Shown here: one piece after another, positions 27,817 to 55,817 of the stretch
Layout of the letters: each line of letters starts with the position of its first letter
How positions within the stretch are numbered: position 1 is the first letter of the stretch
Assembly: GCA_947463095.1 (NCBI GenBank)
Contig: CANHRE010000004.1
Span: 11,077-75,076, forward strand
Source: Flavobacteriales bacterium
Lineage (GTDB): Bacteria; Bacteroidota; Bacteroidia; NS11-12g; UBA955
Direction: 5' to 3'
DNA: 64,000 bases
Program-made: the position numbers and the translations under genes
The notes under the pieces: model-generated
Database searches by the model: none
Seen by the model: only the letters and a program-made list of their open reading frames with translations
Told to the model about the DNA's origin: nothing

Positions 27817-28425
27817 TTACAGTGCCAGCAAACTGCAAAGCTCCGATTGCAAGTCGGCGCTGTTGTTTTGTGCGTACCACTTGTGTACCCGTTCTGCATA
27901 GACATGATGGTCTTCATCTGCGGTACGGGCTTCATTTACCAAACGCTGCGCCTCGGTAGGACGTGGACCCCAGTTGCCGCAAACATGAAAATTGTCGTCC
28001 AGCTGTATCAGCTTCGGAATACTCTTCCCGCCATTGGTGAGCCATTGATTCATCAATTCGGGATGCTCGTCGCGCAGTAAAATACGAAGTTCAATAGTGT
28101 TTGAACTGTTAACACATACCTGATGCAATGCCGGCAGGTTCTGCGCAGCATCACCACACCAGGCTTCGGCAAGCACCAGCCAGCGAAGCGGAGCCTTTAT
28201 ATCCCCAATGACAGCACCCAAGGCTTCACTCATCACAAAGCGCTTCTCTACGCGATCCATTCGGTGCTCGTTCAGTCTGGAGTATTCCAGCATCTCAGGT
28301 GAGTGGTTCGTACCCGTGGTTTGCTCCTTTGCGTGTAGTGTTTCAATCAACAAGCGGTAGTGCCCATAGTTCATACCCTTGTCCCAGTATTGGCGATAGT
28401 AGCTCGCCATCATTTCTGCACTCAT
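27817..28425 (-). CDS. Thioredoxin-fold family protein (single Cys motif WCGD)
   Basis: 202 aa. LVLAEAWCGDAAQNLPAL matches thioredoxin-like proteins that have only one active-site Cys. The gene is adjacent to the UbiA prenyltransferase gene. Confidence 0.45.
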   Translation of the reverse strand: MSAEMMASYYRQYWDKGMNYGHYRLLIETLHAKEQTTGTNHSPEMLEYSRLNEHRMDRVEKRFVMSEALGAVIGDIKAPLRWLVLAEAWCGDAAQNLPALHQVCVNSSNTIELRILLRDEHPELMNQWLTNGGKSIPKLIQLDDNFHVCGNWGPRPTEAQRLVNEARTADEDHHVYAERVHKWYAQNNSADLQSELCSLLAL

Positions 28426-28456: not shown

Positions 28457-29389
28457 TTATTGTGCGGTCATTAGATGCGGCCACCAGATGCCCAGCGTGT
28501 ATAACAGGTATTCCAGGAAGAACAATCCCCAGAAACCCATATAAAAGCGATGCACCGCCTTGTTGCTGCGCACATTCAAACGATATCCAAGAACAAGAAA
28601 GGAAGTCCCAGCGCCGATGTGTGCGGCCGCAACCCAACCTACCTGTGGGGTCAGGAAACCCATGCTGAAGCAATAGCCCAGCCCGAAGTAGGAAAGTGCA
28701 ACAAACCACAATCCCAGTTTCAGCGCTGCCTGACGAGAATATTGCACGGCCACGGTGCGTATCTTGAACGCTGCATCACCGGTCGAATCAGGAATGTCTT
28801 TGAACCAGGCAATGGCCAGGCTGAAGAAGAAAATGAATGCCGTGAGCGGCCATAGAAATGGAGGAATGCTGAAACTGCCGCCCAGTGCATGCCGGAAGTG
28901 CAGGAAAATGCCCAAATTCACCAGTAAACCCCTCACCAGTGAAATTGCGGCGGCGGCGCCCAGGTGGTGCTTTTTGAACTTTATGGGAGGAAGTGAATAT
29001 ACCGCGCCAATCAGGCTGATCAGGGCAATGAGTGAGCAGAAATAAACAGAAAGCCAGAGGGCAATCCCTAATGAAATAAACAGGCAGGCCAAGCACAGAA
29101 CAAGGGCTTGCCGGGCGCTGATTTGTCCGGAGGGTATGGGCAACCAGGGTTTGTTGATTTTATCTAACTCCACGTCGGCCCATTGATTCAGCCCGGTGAT
29201 GAACATATTGCATGCCAGGCAGGCCGCCAGGGTAGCTATGCCAAGCAGGGCGCGGGCAGAATCCCAGCCGGGTATTTCTGATATTGCCAGCAGGAACAGC
29301 GCACTAACGCTGAACAATGAACCAATAATGGTATGAGGCCTTGAAAACCGCCACAGTACCAAAACCGGATGAAACATGCGCGCTAACAT
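28457..29389 (-). CDS. UbiA-family aromatic prenyltransferase
   Basis: 310 aa with about 8-9 TM helices. The first Asp-rich motif is NMFITGLNQWADVELDKINKP (NxxxDxxxD); a second Asp-containing loop is present. Confidence 0.75.
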   Translation of the reverse strand: MLARMFHPVLVLWRFSRPHTIIGSLFSVSALFLLAISEIPGWDSARALLGIATLAACLACNMFITGLNQWADVELDKINKPWLPIPSGQISARQALVLCLACLFISLGIALWLSVYFCSLIALISLIGAVYSLPPIKFKKHHLGAAAAISLVRGLLVNLGIFLHFRHALGGSFSIPPFLWPLTAFIFFFSLAIAWFKDIPDSTGDAAFKIRTVAVQYSRQAALKLGLWFVALSYFGLGYCFSMGFLTPQVGWVAAAHIGAGTSFLVLGYRLNVRSNKAVHRFYMGFWGLFFLEYLLYTLGIWWPHLMTAQ

Positions 29390-29432
29390 GCCGGCAAGGT
29401 ATAAAGGTTTTGTTTAAGCACCGAATGGGTAG

Positions 29433-30185
29433 TCAATGATCCGAAACCGCTGTGCACAGGAATACCTGAACAGGCAGCAGGGCGCTTCCTGCCTGAACCC
29501 AGATGCCGTGCGCACCTATGGCCTCAGCATGGCTCTTAAGCTGTTGGCGCCGCAGGGAACCCGGACTCTTCCACACACTGATTAATCCGTCCCAGGTTAC
29601 CGTGATGAGGTTTACAGGTACAATCCAGGTGAACAACAGGCGACTCCATTGAAAGGGTTTGACAAATGGGGCGAAGAGCACCTGGCCGAGGGTGGTTGCC
29701 AGCATAATACGCAGGGTACACCATAAATCAGGAGTCAGGATTTCTGCAACAAGCAGGCTGTGCCCCCGCGACAGTTGTCGGGTGATGATTCCCTTCTGTT
29801 CTTCAAGGCTGAAGTGGTGAAAGGTATTGAAAAAGGTGATCGTACTTCCCGGTACAGCCTCGCAAACCCTGGCATCTACAGGGTCGTTCAGGTAGTGGCA
29901 GGATTCCGGCAGGCTGATGTTGCTGTGGGGGTATAAATCGGTAAGCACAAAACGACTGTCTTTAAACAGGGGATGCCCGCTCAGCTGCGGAACAGGACCA
30001 CCGCTGCCCGAGCCCATGTCCGTAATGTGCTGCAACGCAGATGACTTAAGATGCTGATTCATCAACAACGGAATGTCGCGATACACCCTAAACAGCTGCA
30101 CCATCCAGCCTATAAAGGATGTTTGCTGACGCCGCAGTACATCGGGAAACCAGTCGTAATCTTCCAGCTCTTTCATGATGCACAA
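29433..30185 (-). CDS. Class I SAM-dependent methyltransferase-like protein
   Basis: 250 aa. Motif I is ITDMGSGSGGP, followed by an acidic beta2 end (VLTDLYP). The gene is arranged divergently/adjacent to the kinase fusion and the UbiA gene. Confidence 0.45.
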   Translation of the reverse strand: MCIMKELEDYDWFPDVLRRQQTSFIGWMVQLFRVYRDIPLLMNQHLKSSALQHITDMGSGSGGPVPQLSGHPLFKDSRFVLTDLYPHSNISLPESCHYLNDPVDARVCEAVPGSTITFFNTFHHFSLEEQKGIITRQLSRGHSLLVAEILTPDLWCTLRIMLATTLGQVLFAPFVKPFQWSRLLFTWIVPVNLITVTWDGLISVWKSPGSLRRQQLKSHAEAIGAHGIWVQAGSALLPVQVFLCTAVSDH

Positions 30186-30202
30186 AGCTATATTGCAACT
30201 TC

Positions 30203-31573
30203 TTGTTGTTACACGATACCATCACCATCGCCCTGCTTGGCATGCTTGTGCTGGCAGCAGTTGGGTTTTCAGCCCGGCTGCTTCAGGCAGGTGGCAATAA
30301 ACTTGTTTCCCGAAAGCTGCTGCATGTGATGGCCATTGGTTGTTGTGCTTTTGCCTTGGGCGGCCTGCATGTTCCGGCACTGATGATATGGATTACAGCC
30401 CTGGTTTATCCGCTGCTGGCCTGGTTGGTGTCGAGGAAGAAATTCCAACATGAAGATACCCGGCCGGCCTGGGGTATTTTATGGTTTCCTCCGGCCATGT
30501 GCAGCATCTGGTACTTTTCCGGCAGCCCAGCCATCACCGCGGCTGCAATGGGTGTTCTGGCCATCTCTGATGCTGCCGCAGCATTGATTGGCGCTTCCTT
30601 GGGACGTATGGAGTTTACCCTCACCGGCGATAAAAAATCCATACCGGGAAGTATAGCCTTTTTCATCACCGCCCTGGCTTTTCTGGCAGCGTGCAGGAGT
30701 GGCGGAATGATCCTGGGTTCTGATGGCATCCTCTTGATGGCGGCCCTGTGCGGTACCCTCCTGGAGGCTATGGGCTCCGGTGGAAGAGATAATTTCTTCG
30801 TTCCTGTTGGTGTGGCCCTGGCATTATCCGCTCCGGATATGCCTGAACTTACCCTCGGCGCCTGGTTGATCCTGCCTCTGTGCTACCTTTTATTCAGGCT
30901 GGGCTGGTTAAGTGCATCAGGGGCGGTTGCCGTTTGGTGCCTCGCCATGGGCATAGTGGCTTGTGCCGGTGCTGCATTCTTACTCCCCCCCCTGGTATTC
31001 TTGGTACTGGGTACCCTGATGGGCAAGCTGCCTGGGAAGAAATCACAGGACTCAAAACAGGGAAAAGCCAGAGATCACCTTCAGGTATGGTGTAATGGCG
31101 GGGTGGCCTTACTGGCGCTATGGCTGGGCGGAACAGTTGGCCCGCTGCTGTTCCTCATTTCCATTGCCATAAGCTGCGCCGATACCTGCAGCAGCGAATG
31201 GGGAACCCGCTTTGGCAAGATTACCGTTCATCCCTTTACCCTGAAACGCATGTCTTCTGGTGAATCGGGGGGCATGAGCCTGGCAGGAACTATGGCGGCT
31301 CTGCCGGCAGCGGCTTGTATTGCGCTGTTTGCCGATGATACCCAGCAATTGCTTTGGGTCAGCGCCGCCGGTTTTGCAGGCATGTGGCTGGATAGCCTGC
31401 TGGGCGCCACCATTCAGGCAAAGTTTAAAACCCCCGAAGGCGCAGTTGCCGAGTCGTTTCTACAGGGATATACCCTCCAGTCTGGCTGGCGCTTTGTAGA
31501 TAACGACCTTGTGAACATCCTGTCAAATGCCCTCACAACCACCATGGCCGCCATCTTGATCTTGGCCGCCTGA
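30203..31573 (+). CDS. Two-domain membrane protein: N-terminal CdsA/dolichol-phytol-kinase-like domain fused to a C-terminal DUF92 (COG1836; VTE6 phytyl-phosphate-kinase-like) domain
   Basis: 456 aa. The N-terminal half carries ISDAAAALIGASLGR…GDKKSIPGSIAFFI, a CTP-dependent polyprenol-kinase-type motif. The C-terminal half carries the DUF92 hallmark ISCADTCSSEWGTRFG (ADTxxSExG). Confidence 0.55.
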   Translation: MLLHDTITIALLGMLVLAAVGFSARLLQAGGNKLVSRKLLHVMAIGCCAFALGGLHVPALMIWITALVYPLLAWLVSRKKFQHEDTRPAWGILWFPPAMCSIWYFSGSPAITAAAMGVLAISDAAAALIGASLGRMEFTLTGDKKSIPGSIAFFITALAFLAACRSGGMILGSDGILLMAALCGTLLEAMGSGGRDNFFVPVGVALALSAPDMPELTLGAWLILPLCYLLFRLGWLSASGAVAVWCLAMGIVACAGAAFLLPPLVFLVLGTLMGKLPGKKSQDSKQGKARDHLQVWCNGGVALLALWLGGTVGPLLFLISIAISCADTCSSEWGTRFGKITVHPFTLKRMSSGESGGMSLAGTMAALPAAACIALFADDTQQLLWVSAAGFAGMWLDSLLGATIQAKFKTPEGAVAESFLQGYTLQSGWRFVDNDLVNILSNALTTTMAAILILAA

Positions 31574-31582
31574 GTGCGGGAT

Positions 31583-32560
31583 TTATAGCTTCACGCAAGT
31601 GCCATTTTTGCACGTATATCCGGCAGGGCAGGTGTTCCCGCAACGGCCACAGTTTTTGCTGTCATTGTTCAGGTCAAACCCTTCATCCGTTTGGTTGTCG
31701 CAATTGTTGTCCTGACCATCGCAAACTTCCGCAGCAATGGGGTTCACCTTCGGATCATTGTCGTTACAGTCATAAGGAAGGTTCACATAGCCCGGTATCA
31801 GTACATCATCCTCAAGCCAGATGTTCGTGTTGCCAAAACCATCGTCGTCCTTGTCCATATACTGACGAACCGCGTCTGCACCATCGCAGTCTTCATCAAT
31901 GTCATTGCCGGTAATTTCCTGGGCGCCTGGATGTACGAGGCTGTTGGTGTCGTTGCAGTCGGTAGAGTCTACGATGAAGCCCCCTGGCGCCCCGTTCCCG
32001 ATGTAGCGCTTTTGCCGGTTGCCGTACCCGTCCTGGTCCTGATCTCTGAACCATTGTCCTGCATCTTTTCCATCGCAGTCTTCGTCAATGCCGTTGTTCG
32101 GTATCTCGGCAGCGCCCGGATAGATGCGCTTGTTTGAGTCATTGCAGTCGCTGCCCCGGGCAATGTAACCGGATGGCGCACTATTGCCGTACTTCCTGAT
32201 GTTCGGATTGCCGTAACCGTCCAAGTCGCTGTCGCGATACCACACCTTCCCGTCAAACCCGTCGCAATCCTGGTCTATTCCGTCGTCGTTGAGCTCCACA
32301 GCCCCTGGATGTATAGATGAGTCTGCATCATTACAATCTGAGGCGTTCAGCACATAACCTGATGGTTGTTCGCAGCGTGAAAGACCATTGGCAGCGTGTC
32401 CATAGCCATCTCCATCATCATCGCGGTAATAGGTTTGTTTGTTTTTACATTCCCGTTCACAGGATGACAATAAGAATGTCCCGGGAATCATCAGCAGAGC
32501 TGCGATGTGGAACAAATGTACCGGCAAGTGTTTAAAGGATAACATAGTGCAAGAATGCAC
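31583..32560 (-). CDS. Lipoprotein built from about five tandem MopE-like putative metal-binding repeats
   Basis: 325 aa with signal and lipobox (…FLLSSC|E). The repeat unit is (W)YRDxDxDGYGN…(G)Y…DCND…(I/V)xPGAxExxxNGIDxDCDG, with about 50 aa per unit and about 150 bp periodicity in the DNA. Confidence 0.7.
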   Translation of the reverse strand: MHSCTMLSFKHLPVHLFHIAALLMIPGTFLLSSCERECKNKQTYYRDDDGDGYGHAANGLSRCEQPSGYVLNASDCNDADSSIHPGAVELNDDGIDQDCDGFDGKVWYRDSDLDGYGNPNIRKYGNSAPSGYIARGSDCNDSNKRIYPGAAEIPNNGIDEDCDGKDAGQWFRDQDQDGYGNRQKRYIGNGAPGGFIVDSTDCNDTNSLVHPGAQEITGNDIDEDCDGADAVRQYMDKDDDGFGNTNIWLEDDVLIPGYVNLPYDCNDNDPKVNPIAAEVCDGQDNNCDNQTDEGFDLNNDSKNCGRCGNTCPAGYTCKNGTCVKL

Positions 32561-44178: not shown

Positions 44179-44894
44179 AGCTCGTTTAGAAATTCAATCG
44201 GAAAGTCAGTGTAATAATGGGTGATGCCCAGCTCCCGGAAGCGTCGGAAGTCGTTCAGGTCATTCACCACACAGGCGCCTGCAGCAATGCCCAGCGATTG
44301 AACTTGGGCTACCAGCTCCGGGCTGATGGCTTCTTTCAGGTACATCAGGGCTGTGAAGCGATAACGGGTAGCAAGCTCAAAGTCGGTTTCATGATCGGTG
44401 CCGGGCAGCCGGTCCCAGAACAAGGGGATATGCGGTGCGCGGCGTCGCGCCTCGATCAGGTATTCGCAGTTGATGTCGTTGAAGGCAATGCGTGTTTCCA
44501 TGCCGCAGGCTGCTGCCAGCTTCAGCGCCGGCGCCACCAGTCCGTTCATCTTGGGTTGTATGCTGATGCGGCAGGAGTAGGGCCGAATGGCTTCAAATAC
44601 TTCGCTGAGCAAAGGCACCGTGCAGGGCGCAGCGCCAGGCAGGTAAGCACCGAAGTTCAGCTTTTTCAGCGCTGCAATACCGGCCTGAGGTACGTTGCAG
44701 GATATTCCCGTAACCCGAAGCGTATCTTCATCATGCGTAACCACCAGATGTCCGTCGGCCGTCATCTGTATGTCCAGCTCCAGCCAGGGCGCCCCGGCTT
44801 CAGCCGCGCTCAGGAAGGCTGGAAGCGTGTTCTCCGGAAAACGCGACATATTCCCCCGATGTGCGAAAATCTGTACCTGTCCTCTGTCCCGCAT
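44175..44894 (-). CDS. Glycerophosphodiester phosphodiesterase (GDPD family)
   Basis: QIFAHRGNMSRFPENTLPAFLSAAEAGAPWLELDIQMTADGHLVVTHDED carries the GDPD HR(G)…E…D…H catalytic signature. The start is set at M26 of the ORF-track frame (44894), which gives an ATGA overlap with the upstream gene. The track's start is 44969. Confidence 0.75.
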   Translation of the reverse strand: MRDRGQVQIFAHRGNMSRFPENTLPAFLSAAEAGAPWLELDIQMTADGHLVVTHDEDTLRVTGISCNVPQAGIAALKKLNFGAYLPGAAPCTVPLLSEVFEAIRPYSCRISIQPKMNGLVAPALKLAAACGMETRIAFNDINCEYLIEARRRAPHIPLFWDRLPGTDHETDFELATRYRFTALMYLKEAISPELVAQVQSLGIAAGACVVNDLNDFRRFRELGITHYYTDFPIEFLNEL

Positions 44895-46990
44895 CAAGCC
44901 TGTTTCATTCTGACAAAAATAAGATAGCTCACCATCAGCTGCAGCAAGCCGGTATAATTGCTCTTCCACACCGGATTGTATATGCCCACTTCCTCCAGCT
45001 CGGGTATCATGCGGTAGGCAATGTTGCTGATGTCTTCCGCATTGGCTGTGCCGTCGAAAATCACCACCTGCTTCTCGTGCTCGTAATGATGTTCCAGCGT
45101 CAGGCCCTTCAGGCAGCTTAAACGCTCCAGCAGGGGCTCCATGTTGTGGTCGTTGGGAAGGCTGAGCCGCAGCAACACCTCGGGCACCGTTTCCTGATCC
45201 AGCGGATCAACAGGCCGGCGTGGGAAAAAACTGGCCAACAGGTCGGCCTGCGCTGCCTGAGTGCGGATGAACTTGTTGGAGTCCTCTTCGCGGTGCTTCA
45301 ACTGTTCCAGCACCTTCTCTGGGGTATAGCCCCGCTTTTGTACGTCGCGGTTCACCTTCCACCAAGTGCGTAAAGGTTCATCCGGCTCCATGAAAATCTT
45401 CAGGTCATACACATCGGCCTGGTTCTTCAGGTAAAAAGAATGTAAACCCTCAAAAACAATCAGTCGGTTGGGCTTCAGGAAACGCGGCAAGGTAAACCTG
45501 CCCGTGTTGTGGTCATAGGAACGGCGCTGTATGCCTTTGCCTGTCTTTAGTTGCCGCGCCTGATCCATCTCCTCGTGGAGCTTGTTGGCCCGCGGATCGA
45601 GGTGCGTTAAACGCTCCCAGTTGGCGTCGCCGCGCTCCCAGCGATGCATGTCGTCGCCCCGGATGATGGTGGTATGTGCCGGCTCAAATACCGATGCCAG
45701 CGCCGACGATAAAGTGGACTTGCCGCTGGCCGAATCCCCTCCCACGCCAATCAGGTATGGCTGCGACAGAAACTTTGTTTGTATATTGGTTTTGATGCCT
45801 TCCCGGTACACCAGAAAGCCGCTCAGCAGCAGACTGGTTTGCAAAAGGGTAAAGGTTACGTTCAGGGCCACATCAGAGGCGAATCCTGCCGGGTGTGGCA
45901 TGGCATTGGGTGCCCACCACAGCGCCGTGAGGTAATCACTGCCCGGAATGAGCCCGAAATACAGGAAATACAGGGCACTGAGCAGGATGAATACCGTCTG
46001 CTCCCGCAGGCTTTGTTTTACAATGAAGAACACCAGCAAGGGCACAATCCAGAAATACCAGCCCTGCATCGGCGGAATCAGCAGCGTCAGCGCCAGAAAG
46101 GTAAAGGTGAGGAACAGCACCAGCTGATCGCGGTTCACAAAACGGAAGCTGGCATACCACACCACCAGGATGAAATACACCGCAGGGATGATGTAAAAAC
46201 GCAGCCCCCCGTAGCTGAAATACATGTTGAATACCTGCCGCTGTACGGGGTTGTCGTATACCATCCTTCTGAATCCCACATCCTGCCAGTACGGGAAGTT
46301 GATGAGCAACAACACCGCGAGAAAGATGGCAGCAGATTGCAGCAGTATGCTCAGCCTGACCTTAGGTGTGCGGATCAGGTAGATGGCATAAAAGGGCAAC
46401 ACCAGCGCCATATTCGTCTTGCAGCCCACCGCCATGGCCAGCAACAGGGCCGACAATGGCCAGCGCTCCCTGAACAGGAAATGCAGCGACAGCATGAGCA
46501 GCGCCATGGGCATCACATCCAGCTGCCCGTGGAAATAGTTGATGTACAACAAAACCGGCGACAGCCAGTACCACAGCAACAGTTTGCGGCTGTAAGGCTT
46601 CAGCCAGCGCATCAATACCACCAGGATGCTGAAGTCGGCGGCCAGCAAGGGAATGCGGTACAAAATGGCATCGGCAACGGAAAAGTGATCGCCGCCCGGT
46701 ATCAGCCACCAGAACAACATCCTGGGCAGGCTGAACAGCCACAGCATCAGGGGCGGATAAGGGAATTCTGTGCCTTGGCCGTTCAGGGAGAAATAGGCGT
46801 ATGGATTGGAAAAGTTGCTGCCAATAAAATAGTTGCCGAATGGTGCAAATTGTTCTTTCAGGTAATCAGAAGCAAACAATGCCGCCAGAAGCAGTTTCGC
46901 GGCCAGGCCAAACCAGAATAAACGCGACTTGAGCAGCGGTAATTTGGATTTCCCGAACTTGTCATAGACGCTGAAGCTTCCGTTTGCCAT
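44894..46990 (-). CDS. Fusion protein: N-terminal polytopic (GT-C/GT87-like?) membrane domain joined to a C-terminal uridine-kinase/phosphoribulokinase-family P-loop kinase domain
   Basis: 698 aa. Residues about 1-400 form about 11 TM helices. Residues about 405-698 carry the P-loop GVGGDSASGKSTLSSAL, then IIRGDDMHR and the wider URK/PRK-family layout. Confidence 0.6.
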   Translation of the reverse strand: MANGSFSVYDKFGKSKLPLLKSRLFWFGLAAKLLLAALFASDYLKEQFAPFGNYFIGSNFSNPYAYFSLNGQGTEFPYPPLMLWLFSLPRMLFWWLIPGGDHFSVADAILYRIPLLAADFSILVVLMRWLKPYSRKLLLWYWLSPVLLYINYFHGQLDVMPMALLMLSLHFLFRERWPLSALLLAMAVGCKTNMALVLPFYAIYLIRTPKVRLSILLQSAAIFLAVLLLINFPYWQDVGFRRMVYDNPVQRQVFNMYFSYGGLRFYIIPAVYFILVVWYASFRFVNRDQLVLFLTFTFLALTLLIPPMQGWYFWIVPLLVFFIVKQSLREQTVFILLSALYFLYFGLIPGSDYLTALWWAPNAMPHPAGFASDVALNVTFTLLQTSLLLSGFLVYREGIKTNIQTKFLSQPYLIGVGGDSASGKSTLSSALASVFEPAHTTIIRGDDMHRWERGDANWERLTHLDPRANKLHEEMDQARQLKTGKGIQRRSYDHNTGRFTLPRFLKPNRLIVFEGLHSFYLKNQADVYDLKIFMEPDEPLRTWWKVNRDVQKRGYTPEKVLEQLKHREEDSNKFIRTQAAQADLLASFFPRRPVDPLDQETVPEVLLRLSLPNDHNMEPLLERLSCLKGLTLEHHYEHEKQVVIFDGTANAEDISNIAYRMIPELEEVGIYNPVWKSNYTGLLQLMVSYLIFVRMKQA

Positions 46991-47877: not shown

Positions 47878-48127
47878 CTCTTACTTTTTCCTTGATGAAA
47901 AAGGATGCAAAAAATCAAGGCTGCTTGGATAGTGGTAAGGGATAAGTGGTAAGTGGTAAGTGCGGAGGTTTGTAATCCTGCTGTCATCCTGAGCATGCCT
48001 ACCCCTACCGGGCTGCGCAGCAGATTGGTAGGGGAGCTAGTTTACCCTGCCTGCCCCCACCGAGTTGCAAAGCAACTGCTTGCCCCCACTGGATTGCGCA
48101 GCAAGACACCATGGGGGTGGGGGAGCA
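47878..48127. repeat. Modular structured intergenic repeat, copy B (direct relative to copy A; carries an extra ~90-bp module)
   Basis: Matches copy A from the hairpin module through the heptamer array (five TGGWWAG units here) and the CCCCCAC…GTGGGGGTGGGGG module. It holds an additional internal duplication of the C-run-TGCGCAGCA-G-run submodule. The hairpin stem is partly degraded (AAAAAGGATG versus AAAAAGTAAG). Confidence 0.85.
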
Positions 48128-48456
48128 ACGTCGAAGGGAAGGACCGCCCACGCACCCTGATTCATACAGATATCCATCCCTGTGCCTTAAGGAAACATAA
48201 CAACAGAAAACAGTATTTAACCTTAGGCTTCGAAAGATTAAATAAGGGCTTTTTATGGATTGCAATCCAGCCGTTCCTTATGCAGGTTATCAAGGTGTGT
48301 AGATTTGGTATTGTCGCTGTTCAGAGGGATATTAACAGCTTGAGAATAATCTTTCCCGGCGAAATGGTATGGGTTGCATGAAATGCAGAACAAGTGAAAT
48401 CAAACGATCTGGCCTGATTATTTTGTAAGTTCGAAGAGGATATAAGCCACAAAAAC

Positions 48457-48678
48457 ATGCTCCACACAATGGATATAGATAGAACTAATCTGACTATCAT
48501 GGGAGTTGAGTTTACTGATTTGAACACTTTAGAAAGCACCGCAAACGCTTTGGGCAGCAATATGTTCGAAGGCATTAAACCAACACCCAATGGTGTTGAA
48601 ATCATCAGAGACTATGTGACGGGCAAAATAAAGGGGTCTAAGACACATGCTAATCATAGTTCAGAAAATGTGTGTTAA
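48457..48678 (+). CDS. Small hypothetical ORF (73 aa) at the island edge; possibly a remnant or accessory gene
   Basis: MLHTMDIDRTNLTIMGVEFTDLNTLESTANALGSNMFEGIKPTPNGVEIIRDYVTGKIKG… The region is AT-rich like the island, and no family assignment is possible. Confidence 0.25.
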   Translation: MLHTMDIDRTNLTIMGVEFTDLNTLESTANALGSNMFEGIKPTPNGVEIIRDYVTGKIKGSKTHANHSSENVC

Positions 48679-48726
48679 TTTGAACCCAGATACGTTTAGG
48701 CAATATATAACCATGAAAGAAAAAAT

Positions 48727-50577
48727 ATGAGTAAAAATTTGAACCATAAAATAGATGCTGACGACAGAAGCATCAGCGAAATTCTGAAAGACCAGAAATT
48801 TACTATTGATTATTTTCAACGTGAATACCGCTGGCAGGAAAAGCATATCAAACTTTTAATTGAAGACCTGACCACTACGTTTCTTAAATCATATAGGGAA
48901 GGAGATAAGAGATCGGAAGTAGCCAATTATCAAAGCTATTATTTAGGCCCTGTGGTGTTTAGTGTGAACACAGAAAGCGGTAAGAAATCAATTATCGACG
49001 GACAGCAGCGCATTACTTCCATCACACTCCTGCTCATTTACCTGAATCATCTTCAAAAAGATCTTCCGCAGAAAGTAAACATCAGCGAACTCATTTTTTC
49101 TGAAAAATATGGCGAAAAATCCTTCAACATGAGTGATGAAGCCAGAGAAGAGTGCTTGAAAGCACTTTTTGAAGCAGGGGCATACGAACCAACGGAAAAA
49201 GATGATGAAACAGTGCGTAACATGGTTGAACGTTATGAGGATATTGATGCTGTTTTCCCTGAAGAAATTAACGAACATGCACTTCCATTTTTCATTGATT
49301 GGTTTGTTGAAAATGTAGTTATTGTTGAAATCATCGCTTATTCGGATGAGAATGCCTATACCATTTTTGAAACAATGAACGACAGGGGATTAAACCTGAC
49401 GCCAACAGAAATGCTGAAAGGGTATATTCTTTCCAAAATCACAGACAAAAAGCAGAGAACAGAAATCAATGACCTTTGGAAAGAAGAAATTCAAAATCTT
49501 CATGAATATGGTGAAACTACAGACCAAAGCTTTTTCCAAGCATGGTTCAGAGGTAAATATGCGGTGAGTATCAGACCTGGTAAAGCAGGTTCGGAAAATC
49601 AGGACTTTGAATTGATTGGTTCCCGTTTTCATAATTGGTTTAAAGACAATCATAAGTCTCTTTTTAAACTGACCACATCAGACGAGTTCTATACTTTTTT
49701 CAAAAATCAGTTCCCATTTTTTGTAAAGTGGTATATCGAAAGCTGGAAAAGTCAAACCACATATAACGCTGCAAATCCGCATTTGAATTACATTCGTCAT
49801 TGGGGTGTTGCCGAATCGCTTCAAGAACCTCTATTGCTCTCATCAATAAACTTTGGTGATGATGAAACCATCATCAGGAAAAAGTTAGACTTTGTTGCAC
49901 GATATATTGAAACCTTTACGGTTCGACGCAGCGTGAACTACCGTAAATTTGGTCAGACGGCAATTAAATACACCATGTTTAATGTCATCAAACTTATTAG
50001 AGACAATGACCTGAAAACATTAGGCTCAAACTTGGTAAATGAAGTGTCACAAATTGCAGAAACATGGGATGGGGTTTGGAGTTTTGGTCTTCACGGCATG
50101 AACAGAAAGTTTGTAAAACATCTTCTTTCAAGAATTTCAAGTTACGTGGACAATTTAGTCGGTAAGGACACAACCTATGTATCCTATCACCATCCATACG
50201 GCAAGCAGTTTGAGATTGAGCACATTTGGGCAAACAAGTTTGAAGAACATAAAGATGAGTTTGACCAGAAAAATGATTTTCAGGAATGGAGAAATTCAGT
50301 TGGTGCACTCGTGTTATTACCACAAGGCACCAATCAATCATTCAATGGCGATAAGTATGAAGACAAACTGGAAAATTATCTAAAGGAAAATACTTACGCA
50401 CAGACCTTGCATCCAAAGTATTACACGAAGAATCCTAATTTTTTGAAATCGGAAACAGTTCAACAACTCGGATTTAAAGAGCATTCGCAATTCAAGAAGA
50501 ATGATATAGGCGAAAGGCAAATATTAGTTCAACGAATCTGTGAGAAAATATGGTCTGAAGAATACTTCAATGTATAA
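48727..50577 (+). CDS. GmrSD-type DUF262/DUF1524 nuclease (type IV restriction / BrxU-like anti-phage protein)
   Basis: 616 aa. The N-terminal DUF262 (ParB-like NTPase) has DGQQRITSITLLLIYL. The C-terminal DUF1524 His-Me finger has …FEIEHIWANKF…NSVGALVLLPQGTNQSFNGDKYEDKL. GC content is about 36-38% against about 56% genome-wide. Confidence 0.8.
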   Translation: MSKNLNHKIDADDRSISEILKDQKFTIDYFQREYRWQEKHIKLLIEDLTTTFLKSYREGDKRSEVANYQSYYLGPVVFSVNTESGKKSIIDGQQRITSITLLLIYLNHLQKDLPQKVNISELIFSEKYGEKSFNMSDEAREECLKALFEAGAYEPTEKDDETVRNMVERYEDIDAVFPEEINEHALPFFIDWFVENVVIVEIIAYSDENAYTIFETMNDRGLNLTPTEMLKGYILSKITDKKQRTEINDLWKEEIQNLHEYGETTDQSFFQAWFRGKYAVSIRPGKAGSENQDFELIGSRFHNWFKDNHKSLFKLTTSDEFYTFFKNQFPFFVKWYIESWKSQTTYNAANPHLNYIRHWGVAESLQEPLLLSSINFGDDETIIRKKLDFVARYIETFTVRRSVNYRKFGQTAIKYTMFNVIKLIRDNDLKTLGSNLVNEVSQIAETWDGVWSFGLHGMNRKFVKHLLSRISSYVDNLVGKDTTYVSYHHPYGKQFEIEHIWANKFEEHKDEFDQKNDFQEWRNSVGALVLLPQGTNQSFNGDKYEDKLENYLKENTYAQTLHPKYYTKNPNFLKSETVQQLGFKEHSQFKKNDIGERQILVQRICEKIWSEEYFNV

Positions 50578-50694
50578 CAAAGAATTTTTGTAAAGACAGC
50601 CAACGCACAGGTGTAAGCATATTTGCAAGTGTAAGTCCCACCGAAAATCGGACTGGTCATAAGTTGGCAAAATAGCTAACTTAGAACCACGAAC

Positions 50695-50961
50695 ATGAAG
50701 AAGACCAAATTCACAGAAAGCCAGATCGTGAAAGCGATTAAGGAGGCTGAAAACGGCCGTTCAGTGTCGGACATCAGCCGGGAACTGGGCATCAACCCGC
50801 AGACTTTGTACAATTGGAAAAATAAGTACTCCGGTATGGACGGTGAACACCTGCGGCGACTTAAGGAACTGGAAGAGGAGAATCGTAAGCTGAAACACAT
50901 GTATGCCGAATTGGCCCTTGACAACAAGATGCTCAAGGATGTGCTGTCAAAAAAGTGGTAA
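50695..50961 (+). CDS. IS3-family transposase OrfA (HTH)
   Basis: 88 aa: MKKTKFTESQIVKAIKEAENGRSVSDISRELGINPQTLYNWKNKY…, then a leucine-zipper-like C-terminus. This is the typical IS3 OrfA. Confidence 0.85.
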   Translation: MKKTKFTESQIVKAIKEAENGRSVSDISRELGINPQTLYNWKNKYSGMDGEHLRRLKELEEENRKLKHMYAELALDNKMLKDVLSKKW

Positions 50962-51779
50962 GGCCTGCTGCCCGCAGAGAAATAGTAGCTTACCTGCAAG
51001 TATCCCATCAGGTAAGTGTCAGCAGAGCCTGTAAAGCAACCGGGATAAGGAAATCGGTCTATTATTACCGTTCCAGGAAGGACGACAGTGCTGTCATTGA
51101 CGCATTGAGCAACCTTGCCGAACTGAAACCATCCAGAGGCTTCCCTTATGACTTCAATCGCCTGCGCAATGAGGGCCATACCTGGAACCATAAGCGTGTG
51201 AAACGGGTCTATAACCTGATGAATCTGAACCTGAGAAGAAAGCATAGGCGCCGCTTACCCCAACGCGTAGGGGGCGCGTTGGAGCAAGCGCCGAGACCAA
51301 ACCAAACATGGAGTCTGGATTTCATGCATGATACATTAATGAACGGTCGCAAAGTGCGCATCCTGAATATCATAGACGACTACAACCGACAAGCTCTGGC
51401 TATGGACGTTGATTACTCCCATTCGGGAATGAGCGTTTGCAGGGCTCTTGAAAGACTCTTCGCCGAACAAGGCCTTCCTGCTGAGTTACGGTCTGACAAT
51501 GGCCCGGAATTCTTTTCTGGAACCTATACCGACTTCTGTGAGAAACATCAAATCAAGATCCGGTACATCAAGCCAGGAAAGCCTATGCAAAACGGCTTTG
51601 TAGAACGGTTTAACCGCAGTTACAGGGAAGATATCCTGGACGCATACCTGTTTACGAATATTGAAGAATTACGTGATCTCACCTGGCAGTTTCAACAAGA
51701 CTACAATCAAAACCACCCACATCAAGCGCTGAATAACTTAAGCCCCATTGCCTTTCTCAAACTAAACAACCATCTTTGA
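50955..51779 (+). CDS. IS3-family transposase OrfB (DDE integrase-like catalytic domain), expressed by -1 frameshift from OrfA
   Basis: rve-type domain: …WSLDFMHDTL…LRSDNGPEF…YIKPGKPMQNGFVERFNRSYREDIL (DD(35)E). It overlaps OrfA at the AAAAAAG site (50949-50955). Confidence 0.85.
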   Translation: MVRPAARREIVAYLQVSHQVSVSRACKATGIRKSVYYYRSRKDDSAVIDALSNLAELKPSRGFPYDFNRLRNEGHTWNHKRVKRVYNLMNLNLRRKHRRRLPQRVGGALEQAPRPNQTWSLDFMHDTLMNGRKVRILNIIDDYNRQALAMDVDYSHSGMSVCRALERLFAEQGLPAELRSDNGPEFFSGTYTDFCEKHQIKIRYIKPGKPMQNGFVERFNRSYREDILDAYLFTNIEELRDLTWQFQQDYNQNHPHQALNNLSPIAFLKLNNHL

Positions 51780-51816
51780 CTTCCAACTTATTACCGGTTC
51801 GAAAAACGGGGTACCT

Positions 51817-52245
51817 TCATTAAACTTTTAGTTGGCAAACCAATAGACGAAAGCATTTCAGTTGACGGTGCTTGGAATACATCAAATGGTGTTGTAGAGT
51901 ATCAGGGTGTTCACACAAAAACAAAGGAACTAATTTTTAAAGTCGGGCCATTAGAGGACGGGACAAATAACATAGTAGAGTTTTTAGGAATTGTTCATGC
52001 ACTTGCACATTGCAAAAAACACAATATCACTCTTCCAATTTATTCGGACAGTAGAAATGCAATCGGTTGGGTTCGTGACAAAGAAGCAAGAACAAACCAT
52101 GACCGTAGCGAAAGAAATACAAAACTTTTCGACATGTTGGACAGAGCAGTAAAATGGCTTAAAGAAAACGAATATGAGAACGAAATTCTCAAATGGGAAA
52201 CAAAAGCATGGGGAGAAAATCCTGCTGACTTTGGTCGAAAATAAT
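51817..52245 (+). pseudogene. RNase H-like (RNase HI fold) ORF with no usable start codon, abutting the IS3 right end
   Basis: The 142-codon frame FIKLLVGKPIDESISVDGAWNTSNGVVEYQGV…TNNIVEFLGIVHALAHCKKH…IYSDSRNAIGW…WETKAWGENPADF aligns with the RNase HI catalytic D-E-D-D positions. There is no ATG/GTG/TTG between the IS end and the first catalytic Asp. It is AT-rich, and its stop lies 40 nt upstream of the helicase start. Confidence 0.6.
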
Positions 52246-52285
52246 TTTGATATAACTATCTTGCACAAATAAAAATTAAACTCAA

Positions 52286-54469
52286 TTGACAACACCTAAA
52301 ACTGATTTAAGCGCTCTTAACGACAAACAAAGCGAAGCCGTTGTTAGTGACGAAAAACGCATTTTGGTTTTAGCTGGTGCAGGTTCTGGCAAAACAAAAA
52401 CCCTATTACAAAAAATCATTTACTTGATAGAAGAAAAAGGCGTAAGTCCTTCAAGTATTCTTGCTATTACATTTACCAAGAACGCAACTAACGAAATGAT
52501 TGACCGCTTAATTGTTTCGGCAGATACAACAGGGCAATATGAAACTTTGATGTCTGATAAGCATCTAAGCAAATTAGAGAAAGACAAAGAAAGATACAGC
52601 CAACAAAAAAAATATAAATGGATTGACGGTTTAACCGTCAGGACATTTCACAGCTTTTGTTACAGCATCTTACGGAATTATGGTGTAAACGAGTTTGATA
52701 ACAAGTTTAGAATTATAGGAGACGAAAAAAAGGACGAGGAAGACGAACTTGCAAAGCATGTTGCCCCCGAAACAGTTTTTGAAGTAGTCCACAAACTTTT
52801 AATTGAGCAATGCGAAGACACTTATTTTATGCTACAATTAAAACGCTATATTTTGGATTACGTTATAGACAAAATTCACCTCAAAAAAACAGATGGAAAA
52901 TATTTGCCGAAAGACGGCAAATATTTCACAACTCTTGATGGAACAAAAGTCCGTTCCAAATCGGAGCAGTTTATTGCTGATTGGTTTTACCGCCACAGCA
53001 TAAAGTATGAATATGAACCTTTACTAAATGTTAAGGACTTCCCATTTCATCCCGACTTTTTCATTCCAGAAGCGAACCTTTATATTGAACACTTAAGCGA
53101 TAAAAGCTATTCTACAAAGGACAAAGAAGAACAATTTCAAAAGGGAAATTTACTTTTAGTAAAGACATTTGAAAGCATGACAAAAGACTCTGCTTTGTTC
53201 AACCACACTCTGGACAGCGTTGTAAAGAACCGTTTGCCTGCAAATTATCACAAGACAGTTTCATTGACTTACAAAGAAGAATTTAATGGATATCATGAAA
53301 GTATAAAGGATTTCGTTACTCAAATCATACGAATTACAGACATGATAAAAGTTGAGAACACAGACCTGAAAAAAGTCCTAAATGATGCAAGACAAGACCA
53401 ACACGAAAGAGTGAGACATTTTTATGAATTAGCAATTCCAATAGTTGAAAAATATATTCATTACTGCATAGACAAATCTTATGTTGATTTTAATGATTTG
53501 ATTTCACGGAGCACTTCCCTATTTCAGAACCATGACGACATAGCCAACAAATACAAAAGCAAATATCAATACATTTTAGTAGATGAATTTCAAGACGTAA
53601 ATAACTTGCAAGTTGAGTTAATAAAACTTTTACTAACCGACCAAACTCAAATGTTTTGTGTTGGTGACGATTGGCAAAGTATTTACGGTTTCAGAGGTTC
53701 TAACGTGAGTTATATCGTTGACTTTGAAAATCATTTTCCAAATGCAAAAGTTGTCAAACTCAATTTGAATTATCGTAGCACTCAAAACATTGTTGGAGCA
53801 AGTAACGAAGTAATCAAACACAACAAGTTTAAAGTTGAAAAAGAAATTCACTCTTCAAAAAAATCTGAACATAAAATTGTTGTCTATTCAGGCAGCAGCG
53901 AAGATGAAAACATACAATTCTGTTTTGACAGAGTGAAAGAACTTTTAGATGAAGGACTGACAAACGATGATATTTTATTTCTCTACCGTAGAAGCAGAAT
54001 GTTTACTCCTTACTTCTTTCGTTTCAAAAACGAGGGAATAAAGGTTCATGGAAAAACAATTCATGCAGCTAAAGGACTTGAAGCAAAAGTTGTTTTCATA
54101 CTTGGCTTGTCAGAGGGAAACGGGGGTTTCCCAGACATTTGGTTGGAGGACAGAATTTTTCAAGTAATTAAAAAAGCAAATCACGATTTGCTAATAGAAG
54201 AAGAAAGGCGACTATTTTATGTTGCAATCACCAGAGCCAAAGACAAACTATTTTTAGTAACAGAGAAAGGAAACGAATCAAGTTTTTTAAAAGAGATACC
54301 AGCCATTTTCACAGTTCGGACAACTATACCAATTAAGTCAGTAGTAGAAAAAGTAATTACGTGCAAAAAGTGTTTTAGCCAACTTGAAAAACTTTGGATT
54401 GCTTGCCCATACTGCATGGAGAAAGTAACAGACGACACCAACGGACAAGAAAATGACATCAATATTTAA
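52286..54469 (+). CDS. UvrD/PcrA-like SF1 helicase with a Vsr/DUF559-like (restriction-endonuclease-fold) domain inserted between motifs Ia and II and a C-terminal Cys4 zinc ribbon; probable anti-phage helicase-nuclease
   Basis: 727 aa. Helicase motifs: I AGAGSGKT, Ia ILAITFTKNA, II YILVDEFQDVN, III VGDDWQSIYGFRGS, IV NYRST, VI YVAITRAKDKLFLV. The insert is …RSKSEQFIADWFYRHSIKYEYEPLLNVKDFPFHPDFFIPEANLYIEHLSDK…. The C-terminus reads CKKCFSQLEKLWIACPYC. GC content is about 35%. Confidence 0.7.
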   Translation: MTTPKTDLSALNDKQSEAVVSDEKRILVLAGAGSGKTKTLLQKIIYLIEEKGVSPSSILAITFTKNATNEMIDRLIVSADTTGQYETLMSDKHLSKLEKDKERYSQQKKYKWIDGLTVRTFHSFCYSILRNYGVNEFDNKFRIIGDEKKDEEDELAKHVAPETVFEVVHKLLIEQCEDTYFMLQLKRYILDYVIDKIHLKKTDGKYLPKDGKYFTTLDGTKVRSKSEQFIADWFYRHSIKYEYEPLLNVKDFPFHPDFFIPEANLYIEHLSDKSYSTKDKEEQFQKGNLLLVKTFESMTKDSALFNHTLDSVVKNRLPANYHKTVSLTYKEEFNGYHESIKDFVTQIIRITDMIKVENTDLKKVLNDARQDQHERVRHFYELAIPIVEKYIHYCIDKSYVDFNDLISRSTSLFQNHDDIANKYKSKYQYILVDEFQDVNNLQVELIKLLLTDQTQMFCVGDDWQSIYGFRGSNVSYIVDFENHFPNAKVVKLNLNYRSTQNIVGASNEVIKHNKFKVEKEIHSSKKSEHKIVVYSGSSEDENIQFCFDRVKELLDEGLTNDDILFLYRRSRMFTPYFFRFKNEGIKVHGKTIHAAKGLEAKVVFILGLSEGNGGFPDIWLEDRIFQVIKKANHDLLIEEERRLFYVAITRAKDKLFLVTEKGNESSFLKEIPAIFTVRTTIPIKSVVEKVITCKKCFSQLEKLWIACPYCMEKVTDDTNGQENDINI

Positions 54470-54726
54470 AGCAGCAGACCTTCGGACGGACAATAGCCCA
54501 GCACATAACATCTAGCGGTGTAGAAGCAACCCCGCCCCATAAAAAACCCTTCGACAGGATGATAGCAGAGGTCTTATCCATTTTCCATTCCCCCCAAAGG
54601 ATCGGCCTCAAATGATGGGAGGCGTTAAACGCCGCAAAAAGCCGCTAAATGCCAAGGAAGCTCCGAGCACGCGAGGAGATCGCCGCTGGCATTCGGCTGA
54701 TGGCAAGTGTGCGCCTTTCATCATTT

Positions 54727-55700: not shown

Positions 55701-55817
55701 AAACCGAACCGCTAATATTTAGCGGAGTAGAAGCAACCACGCTCAAAAAAAATGAGCTAGAGCGTGTTACACGAATTGGGTCAATTTGAGCAAAAACCAC
55801 TAAACTTGACATAAACG

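What the first reader, a model, noticed from the sequence alone, without database searches (positions are those of the whole stretch)
28457..31573. Prenyl-lipid module: UbiA prenyltransferase, SAM methyltransferase-like gene and a fused CdsA/phytol-kinase-like plus DUF92 (VTE6-like) protein
In plants, phytol is phosphorylated twice by two separate membrane enzymes. VTE5 belongs to the CdsA/dolichol-kinase family and VTE6 to the DUF92/COG1836 family. The product, phytyl-PP, feeds a UbiA-family homogentisate prenyltransferase and then methyltransferases to make tocopherol or phylloquinone. Here a single 456-aa protein carries a CdsA-kinase-like motif in its N-terminal half (ISDAAAALIGASLGR…GDKKSIPGSIAFFI). 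The DUF92 hallmark ADTxxSExG (ISCADTCSSEWG) is in its C-terminal half. This protein sits beside a UbiA prenyltransferase and a methyltransferase-like gene, with a thioredoxin-like gene nearby. Together they suggest a self-contained polyprenol salvage route feeding prenylated aromatic or quinone synthesis, with both kinase steps fused into one polypeptide.
Basis: partly seen in the sequence, partly recalled or inferred. Interest (0 to 1): 0.55.

Follow-up and report, generated by a model that had tools for sequence, protein, structure and literature searches.

The report
Bacteroidota prenol-salvage and prenylquinol gene trio
A freshwater, non-photosynthetic Bacteroidota genome carries a conserved three-gene set (a fused two-step prenol kinase, an unclassified methyltransferase and a vitamin-E-type homogentisate prenyltransferase) that probably turns a free isoprenoid alcohol such as phytol into a methylated prenyl-benzoquinol, but nothing has been tested at the bench.

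Summary
All genes and quoted motifs are at the stated coordinates.

- **Kinase fusion:** the 456-aa protein has a DUF92/VTE6-type C-half (Pfam E 3e-45). Its N-half belongs to the CdsA superfamily, on the polyprenol-kinase side. Evidence is hhalign 93.8% to CdsA, CdsA as the only fold match with Z>=8, and stand-alone relatives that pipelines name dolichol or phytol kinase.
- **Prenyltransferase:** the UbiA gene is not MenA or UbiA. It passes NCBI's homogentisate phytyltransferase model (288 bits, cut-off 226). MenA lies on another contig.
- **Methyltransferase:** the gene between them folds as a class I SAM methyltransferase, closest to aromatic C-/O-methyltransferases, but hits no Pfam family.
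- **Linkage:** in 301 sampled class genomes, 11 carry the prenyltransferase. Ten have the fusion beside it on the opposite strand, and nine have the methyltransferase abutting it.
- **Not linked:** a tocopherol cyclase is missing in 10 of the 11. The thioredoxin gene is not conserved with the set.

The likely product is a methylated prenyl-benzoquinol, not tocopherol. The fusion architecture was described in archaea in 2015. This scan has reported the same trio before on other DNA. Function is inferred only.

The parts
30203..31573 (+). Fused prenol kinase, 456 aa. It has an N-terminal polyprenol-kinase-like domain and a C-terminal DUF92/VTE6-like domain.
   Evidence: ORF. It matches database protein P0001 at 100% identity, same length. 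Most of the 150 best of 10,742 profile matches are fused forms of 450-510 aa.
30203..30850 (+). N-half (about residues 1-216): CdsA-superfamily domain of the Sec59/VTE5 polyprenol-kinase type. Motifs: SRKLLH (residues 36-41), SDAxAAxxG (122-130), KSxPGS (145-150), EAxGxxGxDN (188-197).
   Evidence: The protein itself has no Pfam hit. 6 of 49 relatives hit PF01148 just under threshold. hhalign to a CdsA alignment gives 93.8%, E 1.8e-7. The AF2 model has pLDDT 93. The best fold match is CdsA 4q2e, Z 9.6 over 165 residues, the only Z>=8 among 48,161 chains. Stand-alone relatives are named dolichol or phytol kinase.
30869..31537 (+). C-half (residues 223-445): DUF92 / COG1836 / VTE6-type domain. 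Motifs: RDxxQVxxNGG (290-300), ADTxxSExG (326-334), SGG (355-357), DSxxGxxxQ (397-405), NDxVN (434-438).
   Evidence: PF01940 E 2.8e-45, 155 bits against cut-off 27.5. TIGR00297 scores 76.7 bits, below its 205.85 cut-off.
29433..30176 (-). Unclassified class I SAM-dependent methyltransferase, 247 aa, with a helical insertion at residues 151-203. Motifs: DMGSGSGGP (53-61), LTDLYP (78-83), PVDA (99-102), FNTFHHF (116-122), WDGLIS (195-200).
   Evidence: No Pfam or NCBIfam hit. The family has about 50 members. The AF2 model has pLDDT 95.9. Foldseek top hits are RdmB, CouO, NovO and further down Coq5, E about 1e-6, probability 1.0. In relatives the gene abuts or overlaps the prenyltransferase start.
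28457..29389 (-). Homogentisate-phytyltransferase-type UbiA prenyltransferase, 310 aa. Motifs: NQWADVELDKINKP (68-81) and KDIPDSTGD (197-205).
   Evidence: NF009525 scores 288 bits against cut-off 226. The next model, NF009523 (an unspecified prenyltransferase), scores 81 bits, chlorophyll synthase scores 68 and MenA scores 27.5. NCBI and JGI pipelines name relatives homogentisate phytyltransferase.
30177..30202 (.). 26-bp gap between the divergent start codons of the methyltransferase-prenyltransferase operon and the kinase fusion. Any promoters must overlap the coding regions.
   Evidence: Sequence read. The sigma-70 consensus scan found nothing meaningful here, and Bacteroidota promoters are not covered by that scan.

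Best explanation
This is a three-gene membrane module for making a prenylated, methylated benzoquinol from a salvaged isoprenoid alcohol.

- **Step 1 (inferred):** the N-half of the fusion, a CTP-dependent polyprenol kinase of the Sec59/VTE5 type, phosphorylates a free C20-range prenol. Phytol is the best guess, with geranylgeraniol or farnesol possible.
- **Step 2 (inferred):** the DUF92/VTE6-type C-half adds the second phosphate. One polypeptide thus delivers prenyl diphosphate.
- **Step 3 (inferred from family membership):** the divergently encoded HPT-type UbiA enzyme condenses that diphosphate with homogentisate. An HPPD elsewhere in the genome supplies the homogentisate. The product is a 2-methyl-6-prenyl-1,4-benzoquinol.
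- **Step 4 (inferred from fold and operon coupling):** the co-transcribed SAM methyltransferase methylates the ring. The result would be a dimethyl-prenyl-benzoquinol (plastoquinol-like, short tail) or an O-methyl derivative.

No chromanol-forming cyclase is encoded, so the end product is most likely a quinol/quinone lipid acting as a membrane antioxidant or auxiliary redox carrier, not tocopherol.

Shown here: the domain families, the folds and the gene linkage. Not shown: any substrate, any product or expression.
For: Domains:
- DUF92 matches at E 2.8e-45.
- The N-half aligns to CdsA by profile-profile comparison (93.8%, E 1.8e-7). D123, G130, K145 and G149 fall on CdsA's invariant D, G, K and G, and E188 falls on the Asp of CdsA's GD motif.
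- CdsA is the single outstanding fold match (Z 9.6) and holds the top four Foldseek rows.
- Stand-alone relatives are named dolichol or phytol kinase.
- PMC5898192 reports the same two-domain architecture in archaea. It gives HHpred 99.85% to COG0170 for the N-domain and 97.6% to pfam01148 for DUF92.

Prenyltransferase:
- It passes the HPT equivalog model.
- In 301 class genomes the scores are bimodal: 11 genomes at 233-309 bits, everything else at 58 bits or less.

Linkage:
- 10 of the 11 HPT-positive genomes have a full-length fusion on the same contig, 60-930 bp from the prenyltransferase or the methyltransferase and on the opposite strand.
- 9 of 11 have the methyltransferase abutting the prenyltransferase, mostly with overlapping stop and start.
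- In 80 fetched loci, 30 carry the prenyltransferase and 25 the methyltransferase upstream of the fusion. These span Flavobacteriales, Saprospirales and Chitinophagales MAGs, and no other gene family is conserved there.

Supply and end point:
- HPPD is present (457 bits).
- No geranylgeranyl reductase passes its cut-off in the own genome or in 7 of the 10 other HPT-positive genomes. A reduced (phytyl) donor would therefore have to be salvaged, which gives the kinases a purpose.
- The cyclase family is absent from 10 of 11.

Habitat: the DNA recurs in lake and freshwater metagenomes of several studies.
Against: - No biochemical, lipid or expression data exist for any member.
- The N-half itself has no Pfam PF01148 hit even at E 10, and the fusion is below the TIGR00297 cut-off.
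- The HPT model may have been trained partly on such bacterial sequences, so passing it does not prove that homogentisate is the acceptor.
- HPPD is present in 265 of 301 class genomes, so its presence says nothing specific.
- Two HPT-positive genomes lack the methyltransferase and one lacks a detectable fusion.
- Three fused kinases in the class sample, and many in Lewinellaceae, have no prenyltransferase nearby. The kinase therefore also serves other ends.
- The methyltransferase family also occurs alone in 16 genomes.
- My own hhalign of DUF92 against CdsA was weak (10.6%).
Confidence: 0.6

Rival explanations
1. The module makes genuine tocopherol or tocotrienol (vitamin E). Ring closure would be done by an unrecognised cyclase or would happen non-enzymatically.
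For: The prenyltransferase passes the HPT model, and the two kinases are the VTE5/VTE6 pair of the plant tocopherol route. One HPT-positive genome (G001) has a partial PF14249 match of 56 bits on another contig.
Against: The tocopherol cyclase family was not found in the own genome (95.7% complete) or in 9 of the 10 other HPT-positive genomes. Only one methyltransferase is linked, and no further gene family is conserved in the neighbourhood.
Confidence: 0.1
2. The prenyltransferase uses an aromatic acceptor other than homogentisate, for example another hydroxyphenyl acid or a polyketide phenol. The product would be a different methylated meroterpenoid or quinone.
For: Acceptor specificity in UbiA enzymes cannot be read from a family score. 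HPPD presence is uninformative. The methyltransferase's nearest folds act on varied aromatic natural products.
Against: The score is 288 bits to the HPT model against 81 bits or less for every other UbiA model. The NQxxDxxxDxxNKP and KDxxDxxGD motifs are intact. No acceptor-making gene is linked, which fits a substrate taken from central metabolism such as homogentisate.
Confidence: 0.2
3. The kinase fusion recycles the cell's own polyprenols (dolichol-like or undecaprenol-type carrier lipid, farnesol or geranylgeraniol) for general isoprenoid housekeeping. Its position beside the prenyltransferase would have no pathway meaning.
For: Fused kinases occur without the prenyltransferase in Lewinellaceae and in 3 class genomes. 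In archaea DUF92 is linked to uppS (PMC5898192). Earlier scan notes report the fusion beside other prenyltransferases in Acidobacteria (not checked here).
Against: 10 of 11 HPT-positive genomes, spread over five of the tool's family labels, keep the fusion directly beside the operon in the same divergent arrangement, while all other neighbours differ.
Confidence: 0.1

Closest known systems
Plant and cyanobacterial phytol salvage: VTE5 (phytol kinase, Synechocystis Slr1652) and VTE6 (phytyl-phosphate kinase, Sll0875; DUF92/COG1836)
   Same: The same two protein families act in the same inferred order, and they sit next to the enzyme that consumes the diphosphate. The C-half passes Pfam DUF92. 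The N-half's stand-alone relatives are annotated as phytol or dolichol kinase.
   Different: Here both domains are one polypeptide. The host has no chlorophyll to recycle and mostly no geranylgeranyl reductase. The prenol is unknown. The protein is below the TIGR00297 cut-off and has no direct PF01148 hit.
Archaeal COG0170 + COG1836 two-domain proteins (for example Mbar_A3310), described by Makarova et al. 2015, PMC5898192
   Same: The domain order is identical: a Sec59-like domain followed by DUF92. Both domains were assigned there to the cytidylyltransferase superfamily with conserved aspartates, and a kinase role in isoprenoid metabolism was predicted.
   Different: The archaeal context is uppS, not an HPT-type prenyltransferase plus methyltransferase. 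I made no direct sequence comparison with the archaeal proteins.
Homogentisate phytyltransferase VTE2/HPT (Synechocystis Slr1736) and its relatives HGGT and HST
   Same: It passes NCBIfam NF009525 (288 bits against 226). Both Asp-rich motifs are of the HPT type (that these motifs typify HPT is from my own knowledge).
   Different: The host is a non-photosynthetic Bacteroidota. No VTE1 cyclase is present, and no VTE3- or VTE4-type methyltransferase was recognised. I could not place it in a tree with cyanobacterial and plant enzymes.
Aromatic C-/O-methyltransferases of quinone and natural-product pathways (Coq5/UbiE, CouO/NovO, RdmB); functionally, MPBQ methyltransferase VTE3
   Same: It has the class I Rossmann methyltransferase fold with glycine-rich motif I, and these enzymes are among its closest folds. 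Its position in the operon is that of a ring-modifying step.
   Different: No Pfam or NCBIfam methyltransferase model matches it. It has its own conserved FHHF and WDGxxS motifs and a 50-residue helical insertion. The site of methylation is unknown.
CDP-diacylglycerol synthase CdsA (PDB 4q2e)
   Same: It is the fold and profile-level relative of the N-half.
   Different: The N-half lacks CdsA's C-terminal KRxxxxKDxxxxxPGHGGxxDRxD signature, which is seen intact in the genome's real CdsA. It carries EAxGxxGxDN instead.

Membership tests
DUF92 / COG1836 / VTE6 (Pfam PF01940) | Match to the Pfam model above the gathering score | tested here: met
   155.1 bits against 27.5, E 2.8e-45, residues 223-445 covering profile positions 3-250 of 251.
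DUF92 / COG1836 / VTE6 (Pfam PF01940) | Match to the NCBIfam TIGR00297 model (NCBI type 'hypoth_equivalog') above its cut-off | tested here: not met
   76.7 bits against cut-off 205.85. It is a family member but a divergent one.
DUF92 / COG1836 / VTE6 (Pfam PF01940) | Prenyl-monophosphate kinase activity | not testable with these tools
   Needs an enzyme assay.
Polyprenol kinases of the CdsA superfamily (COG0170: Sec59/DolK, VTE5, FOLK) | Sequence match to Pfam CTP_transf_1 (PF01148) | tested here: not met
   The N-half alone has no PF01148 hit even at E 10. 6 of 49 relatives hit it just below threshold, the best at 23.9 bits against 24.
Polyprenol kinases of the CdsA superfamily (COG0170: Sec59/DolK, VTE5, FOLK) | Profile-level homology to CdsA-family proteins over the catalytic core | tested here: met
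   hhalign of A4 against A6 gives probability 93.8%, E 1.8e-7, over 114 columns. D123, G130, K145 and G149 fall on CdsA invariant positions.
Polyprenol kinases of the CdsA superfamily (COG0170: Sec59/DolK, VTE5, FOLK) | CdsA-like fold | tested here: met
   The model has pLDDT 93. 4q2e_A gives Z 9.6, rmsd 4.5 over 165 residues, the only Z>=8. The Foldseek E-value is only 0.12, and Z is below the tool's caution line for helical bundles, so support is moderate.
Polyprenol kinases of the CdsA superfamily (COG0170: Sec59/DolK, VTE5, FOLK) | Closer to the kinase branch than to CdsA proper | tested here: inconclusive
   Stand-alone relatives (profile E about 1e-42) are named dolichol or phytol kinase by JGI. 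The CdsA C-terminal signature is absent. A language-model neighbour cluster is labelled 'Phytol kinase family'. I had no bona fide VTE5 or Sec59 sequence for a direct comparison.
Homogentisate phytyltransferase (NCBIfam NF009525) | Score above the equivalog cut-off and well above the other UbiA models | tested here: met
   288 bits against 226. The next best UbiA model, NF009523 (an unspecified prenyltransferase), scores 81 bits. The class-wide score distribution is bimodal.
Homogentisate phytyltransferase (NCBIfam NF009525) | Both Asp-rich motifs intact | tested here: met
   NQWADVELDKINKP at residues 68-81 and KDIPDSTGD at 197-205.
Homogentisate phytyltransferase (NCBIfam NF009525) | Homogentisate as acceptor and phytyl or geranylgeranyl diphosphate as donor | not testable with these tools
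   HPPD is present but nearly universal in the class, so it is no test.
Complete tocopherol pathway | Tocopherol cyclase (VTE1, PF14249) | tested here: not met
   No match in the own genome (95.7% complete) or in 9 of the 10 other HPT-positive genomes.
MenA / UbiA canonical quinone prenyltransferases | Match to MenA or UbiA equivalog models | tested here: not met
   MenA model 27.5 bits and UbiA model 22.4 bits. The genome's real MenA is on contig C61 (TIGR00751, 180 bits against 102) and its heme O synthase is on C40.
Class I SAM-dependent methyltransferases | Rossmann-type methyltransferase fold with glycine-rich motif I and an acidic residue after strand 2 | tested here: met
   The model has pLDDT 95.9. 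445 PDB matches have E<=0.001, and the 50 best rows shown are nearly all methyltransferases. DMGSGSGGP and LTD are conserved. No Pfam methyltransferase model matches.

The most novel reading that the evidence does not exclude
Heterotrophic lake and marine Bacteroidota that live off phytoplankton take up phytol released from algal chlorophyll. They activate it with the fused kinase and build a phytyl-dimethyl-benzoquinol from it, a vitamin-E-precursor or plastoquinol-like lipid. That would be a class of redox and antioxidant lipid not known outside phototrophs and their descendants, and a new fate for chlorophyll-derived phytol in aquatic carbon cycling.
Probability: 0.25. Interest if true: 0.75.

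Novelty: new variant of a known kind. Interest (0 to 1): 0.55.

Why it matters
Homogentisate-derived prenylquinols (tocopherols, plastoquinol) are textbook lipids of oxygenic phototrophs. Bacteroidota are thought to rely on menaquinone. A conserved, compact gene set for a prenyl-benzoquinol in non-photosynthetic aquatic Bacteroidota would matter in three ways:

- It would add a new lipid class to this phylum.
- It would give the widespread DUF92/COG0170 kinase fusion a concrete pathway role in bacteria.
- It would define a new methyltransferase family.

If the prenol is phytol, the module would also link bacterial membrane chemistry to the turnover of algal chlorophyll. The pieces are small and could be expressed, so the idea can be tested directly.

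Tried and rejected
- **Pfam on the N-half alone.** Only noise at E up to 10.
- **PDB sequence searches.** The whole fusion and the N-half profile both gave no hits.
- **The search for related loci with the 17-sequence alignment.** It failed because no stretch was conserved enough. I repeated it with 9 closer sequences.
- **HPPD co-occurrence as a test of homogentisate use.** Rejected as uninformative: 265 of 301 class genomes have HPPD.
- **DUF92 half against CdsA and against the N-half by hhalign.** The alignments are motif-consistent, but probabilities are only 10.6% and 30.2%. I rely on the published HHpred result instead.
- **Methyltransferase-family members outside the trio.** I fetched 12 loci. 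The 11 without the prenyltransferase share no conserved neighbour, so they say nothing about the substrate. The twelfth (G223) has the methyltransferase-prenyltransferase pair but no fusion within about 6 kb.
- **Other recurrent neighbours of the fusion.** They are housekeeping genes (L25, iPGM, thiolase, Lon, RuvA), present only through synteny among close kin.
- **Expression.** No RNA holder is listed for this DNA, so I laid no reads.
- **Literature.** The VTE6 discovery paper (vom Dorp 2015) is not held. Searches for an HPT in Bacteroidota or other non-phototrophic bacteria found nothing relevant.
- **Sigma-70 promoter scan.** Not above the shuffled expectation, and not suited to Bacteroidota.
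- **Complex prediction.** None was run, since no binding claim is made.


Full report
**What is there.** The window lies in a 2.62-Mb, 123-contig genome that is 95.7% complete. Its DNA recurs in lake and freshwater metagenomes from several studies. The closest related contigs are freshwater Bacteroidia and Bacteroidota MAGs. Four ORFs occupy the stretch:

| Gene | Coordinates | Size |
|---|---|---|
| Thioredoxin_9 gene | 27817-28425(-) | 202 aa |
| UbiA-family gene | 28457-29389(-) | 310 aa |
| Gene with no Pfam or NCBIfam hit | 29433-30176(-) | 247 aa from the ATG |
| Membrane protein (the fusion) | 30203-31573(+) | 456 aa |

The two transcription units diverge from a 26-bp gap.

**The fusion protein.** Residues 223-445 match Pfam DUF92 at E 2.8e-45. 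This is the family of plant and cyanobacterial VTE6. The match to the narrower TIGR00297 model is below its cut-off.

The N-half gave no Pfam hit on its own, so I tested it in several ways:

- **Profile search.** A profile of 16 N-halves found 10,742 proteins among 1.84 billion representatives. Most of the best 150 are fused forms of 450-510 aa, and about a dozen are stand-alone proteins of 213-228 aa.
- **Pfam on relatives.** Six of 49 relatives touch PF01148 (CTP_transf_1) just under threshold.
- **Annotation of relatives.** JGI names the stand-alone ones dolichol kinase or phytol kinase. NCBI names them phosphatidate cytidylyltransferase.
- **Fold.** An AlphaFold model of pLDDT 93 has CdsA (4q2e) as its top four Foldseek rows. 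CdsA is also the only match with Z>=8 among 48,161 chains (Z 9.6, 165 residues).
- **Profile-profile comparison.** I built a CdsA alignment from this genome and its relatives. hhalign against it gives 93.8% probability, E 1.8e-7. D123, G130, K145 and G149 fall on CdsA's invariant D, G, K and G.

The N-half lacks CdsA's C-terminal PGHGG-DRxD signature, which the genome's real CdsA on contig C79 keeps. It carries EAxGxxGxDN instead. Together this places the N-half in the CdsA superfamily on the polyprenol-kinase side. I could not compare it directly with a bona fide VTE5 or Sec59 sequence.

The architecture is not new. Makarova et al. 2015 (PMC5898192) described archaeal proteins with a Sec59-like N-domain (HHpred 99.85% to COG0170) fused to COG1836/pfam01940. 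They showed that DUF92 is itself a distant cytidylyltransferase-family member. My own hhalign for that last point was weak, though the motifs line up.

**The prenyltransferase.** It scores 288 bits on NCBIfam NF009525, homogentisate phytyltransferase, against a cut-off of 226. The next best UbiA model, NF009523 (an unspecified prenyltransferase), scores 81 bits, chlorophyll synthase scores 68, MenA 27.5 and UbiA 22. Both Asp-rich motifs are intact. Annotation pipelines call its relatives homogentisate phytyltransferase.

The genome's real MenA and heme O synthase lie on other contigs, together with two GGGP-synthase-like paralogues.

**The middle gene.** Its family has about 50 members in 5.8 billion clusters, and none carries a Pfam domain. 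The model (pLDDT 95.9) is a class I SAM methyltransferase. Its nearest solved folds are aromatic C- and O-methyltransferases: RdmB, CouO, NovO and, further down, Coq5.

Motif I (DxGSGxGGP), LTD after strand 2, and family-specific FHHF and WDGxxS motifs are conserved. A helical insertion at residues 151-203 is not hydrophobic enough to be called transmembrane.

**Linkage.**

- **Fetched loci.** In 80 related loci, almost all Bacteroidota, 30 have the prenyltransferase and 25 the methyltransferase just upstream of the fusion on the other strand. No other gene family recurs except through close kinship.
- **Prenyltransferase distribution.** In an even sample of 301 genomes of the class, the prenyltransferase model gives 11 genomes at 233-309 bits and nothing else above 58 bits.
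- **Fusion beside it.** Ten of those 11 have a full-length fusion on the same contig, within about 60-930 bp of the operon.
- **Methyltransferase beside it.** Nine of the 11 have the methyltransferase abutting the prenyltransferase, usually with overlapping stop and start codons.
- **Exceptions.** Two carriers lack the methyltransferase and one lacks a detectable fusion. Three weaker fusions, and many in Lewinellaceae, lack the prenyltransferase. The methyltransferase family also occurs alone in 16 genomes, with no conserved neighbours.
- **Genes not in the set.** The thioredoxin gene and the MopE-like lipoprotein follow the set only in the nearest relatives.

The class tallies include two unpublished genomes (G180, G094). 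They count only as prenyltransferase-negative, HPPD-positive members, and no specific claim rests on them.

**What it probably makes.**

- HPPD is present (457 bits), so homogentisate is available. HPPD is nearly universal in the class (265 of 301), so this is permissive, not diagnostic.
- The tocopherol cyclase family is missing from the own genome and from 9 of the 10 other carriers.
- A geranylgeranyl-reductase-family enzyme above its cut-off is missing from 8 of the 11 carriers, including this genome.

A cell already makes its own prenyl diphosphates, so a dedicated two-step kinase tied to the prenyltransferase argues for a donor the cell obtains as a free alcohol. In lakes the obvious candidate is chlorophyll-derived phytol. 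This step is inference.

The most economical reading is: prenol to prenyl-P to prenyl-PP on the fusion, decarboxylative prenylation of homogentisate, then one ring methylation. The product would be a dimethyl-prenyl-benzoquinol or quinone, not a chromanol.

**Known or new.** Each family is known. The fusion was described in archaea in 2015, and the prenyltransferase is already auto-annotated as HPT. I found no paper on this trio or on any homogentisate-derived prenylquinol in Bacteroidota.

This scan has reported the same trio before on other genomes (e1-5279314, e1-4426141, e1-3406208). It has also reported the fusion with other prenyltransferases in Acidobacteria. My tests here were run independently and agree with the Bacteroidota notes. 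I rate it a new variant of a known kind: of moderate interest, with no experimental support yet.

Noticed in passing
window 48000-56000: A low-GC stretch (0.34-0.43 against about 0.52 elsewhere) holds a GmrSD-type restriction endonuclease (48727-50577), an rve-integrase transposase (50955-51779) and a UvrD-like helicase (52286-54469). It looks like an acquired mobile or defence island.
   Followed up: partly
window 44894-46990 (-): A 698-aa protein joins a GT87-like membrane glycosyltransferase region (weak, 27.8 bits) to a phosphoribulokinase/uridine-kinase domain (E 4e-37). This is an unusual pairing.
   Followed up: no
window 31583-32560 (-): A lipoprotein-like protein made of MopE-type putative metal-binding repeats (PF11617, four stretches) with a Cys-rich tail lies right after the kinase fusion. 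It is conserved there only in the closest relatives L009-L011. The scan has already noted it as e1-1355816.
   Followed up: partly
window 27817-28425 (-): The Thioredoxin_9 gene lies downstream of the prenyltransferase. It is kept in that place only in L010 and L011, so it is probably not part of the module.
   Followed up: yes
loci L097-L107 (class genomes G172, G157, G164, G102, G278, G206, G041, G188, G235, G138, G051): A more distant branch of the unclassified methyltransferase family (26-35% identity) occurs alone in genomes without the prenyltransferase. It has no conserved neighbours, and its role is open.
   Followed up: partly
own genome contigs C12:16197-17084 and C89:1-681: Two further UbiA-family genes resemble GGGP-synthase-type prenyltransferases but score far below any model cut-off. 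Their function is unknown.
   Followed up: no
L083 (Tissierella pigra), L088 (Saccharibacteria MAG), L080 (Thermoanaerobaculia MAG): Full-length or near full-length relatives of the kinase fusion also occur outside Bacteroidota. I did not examine their neighbourhoods.
   Followed up: no
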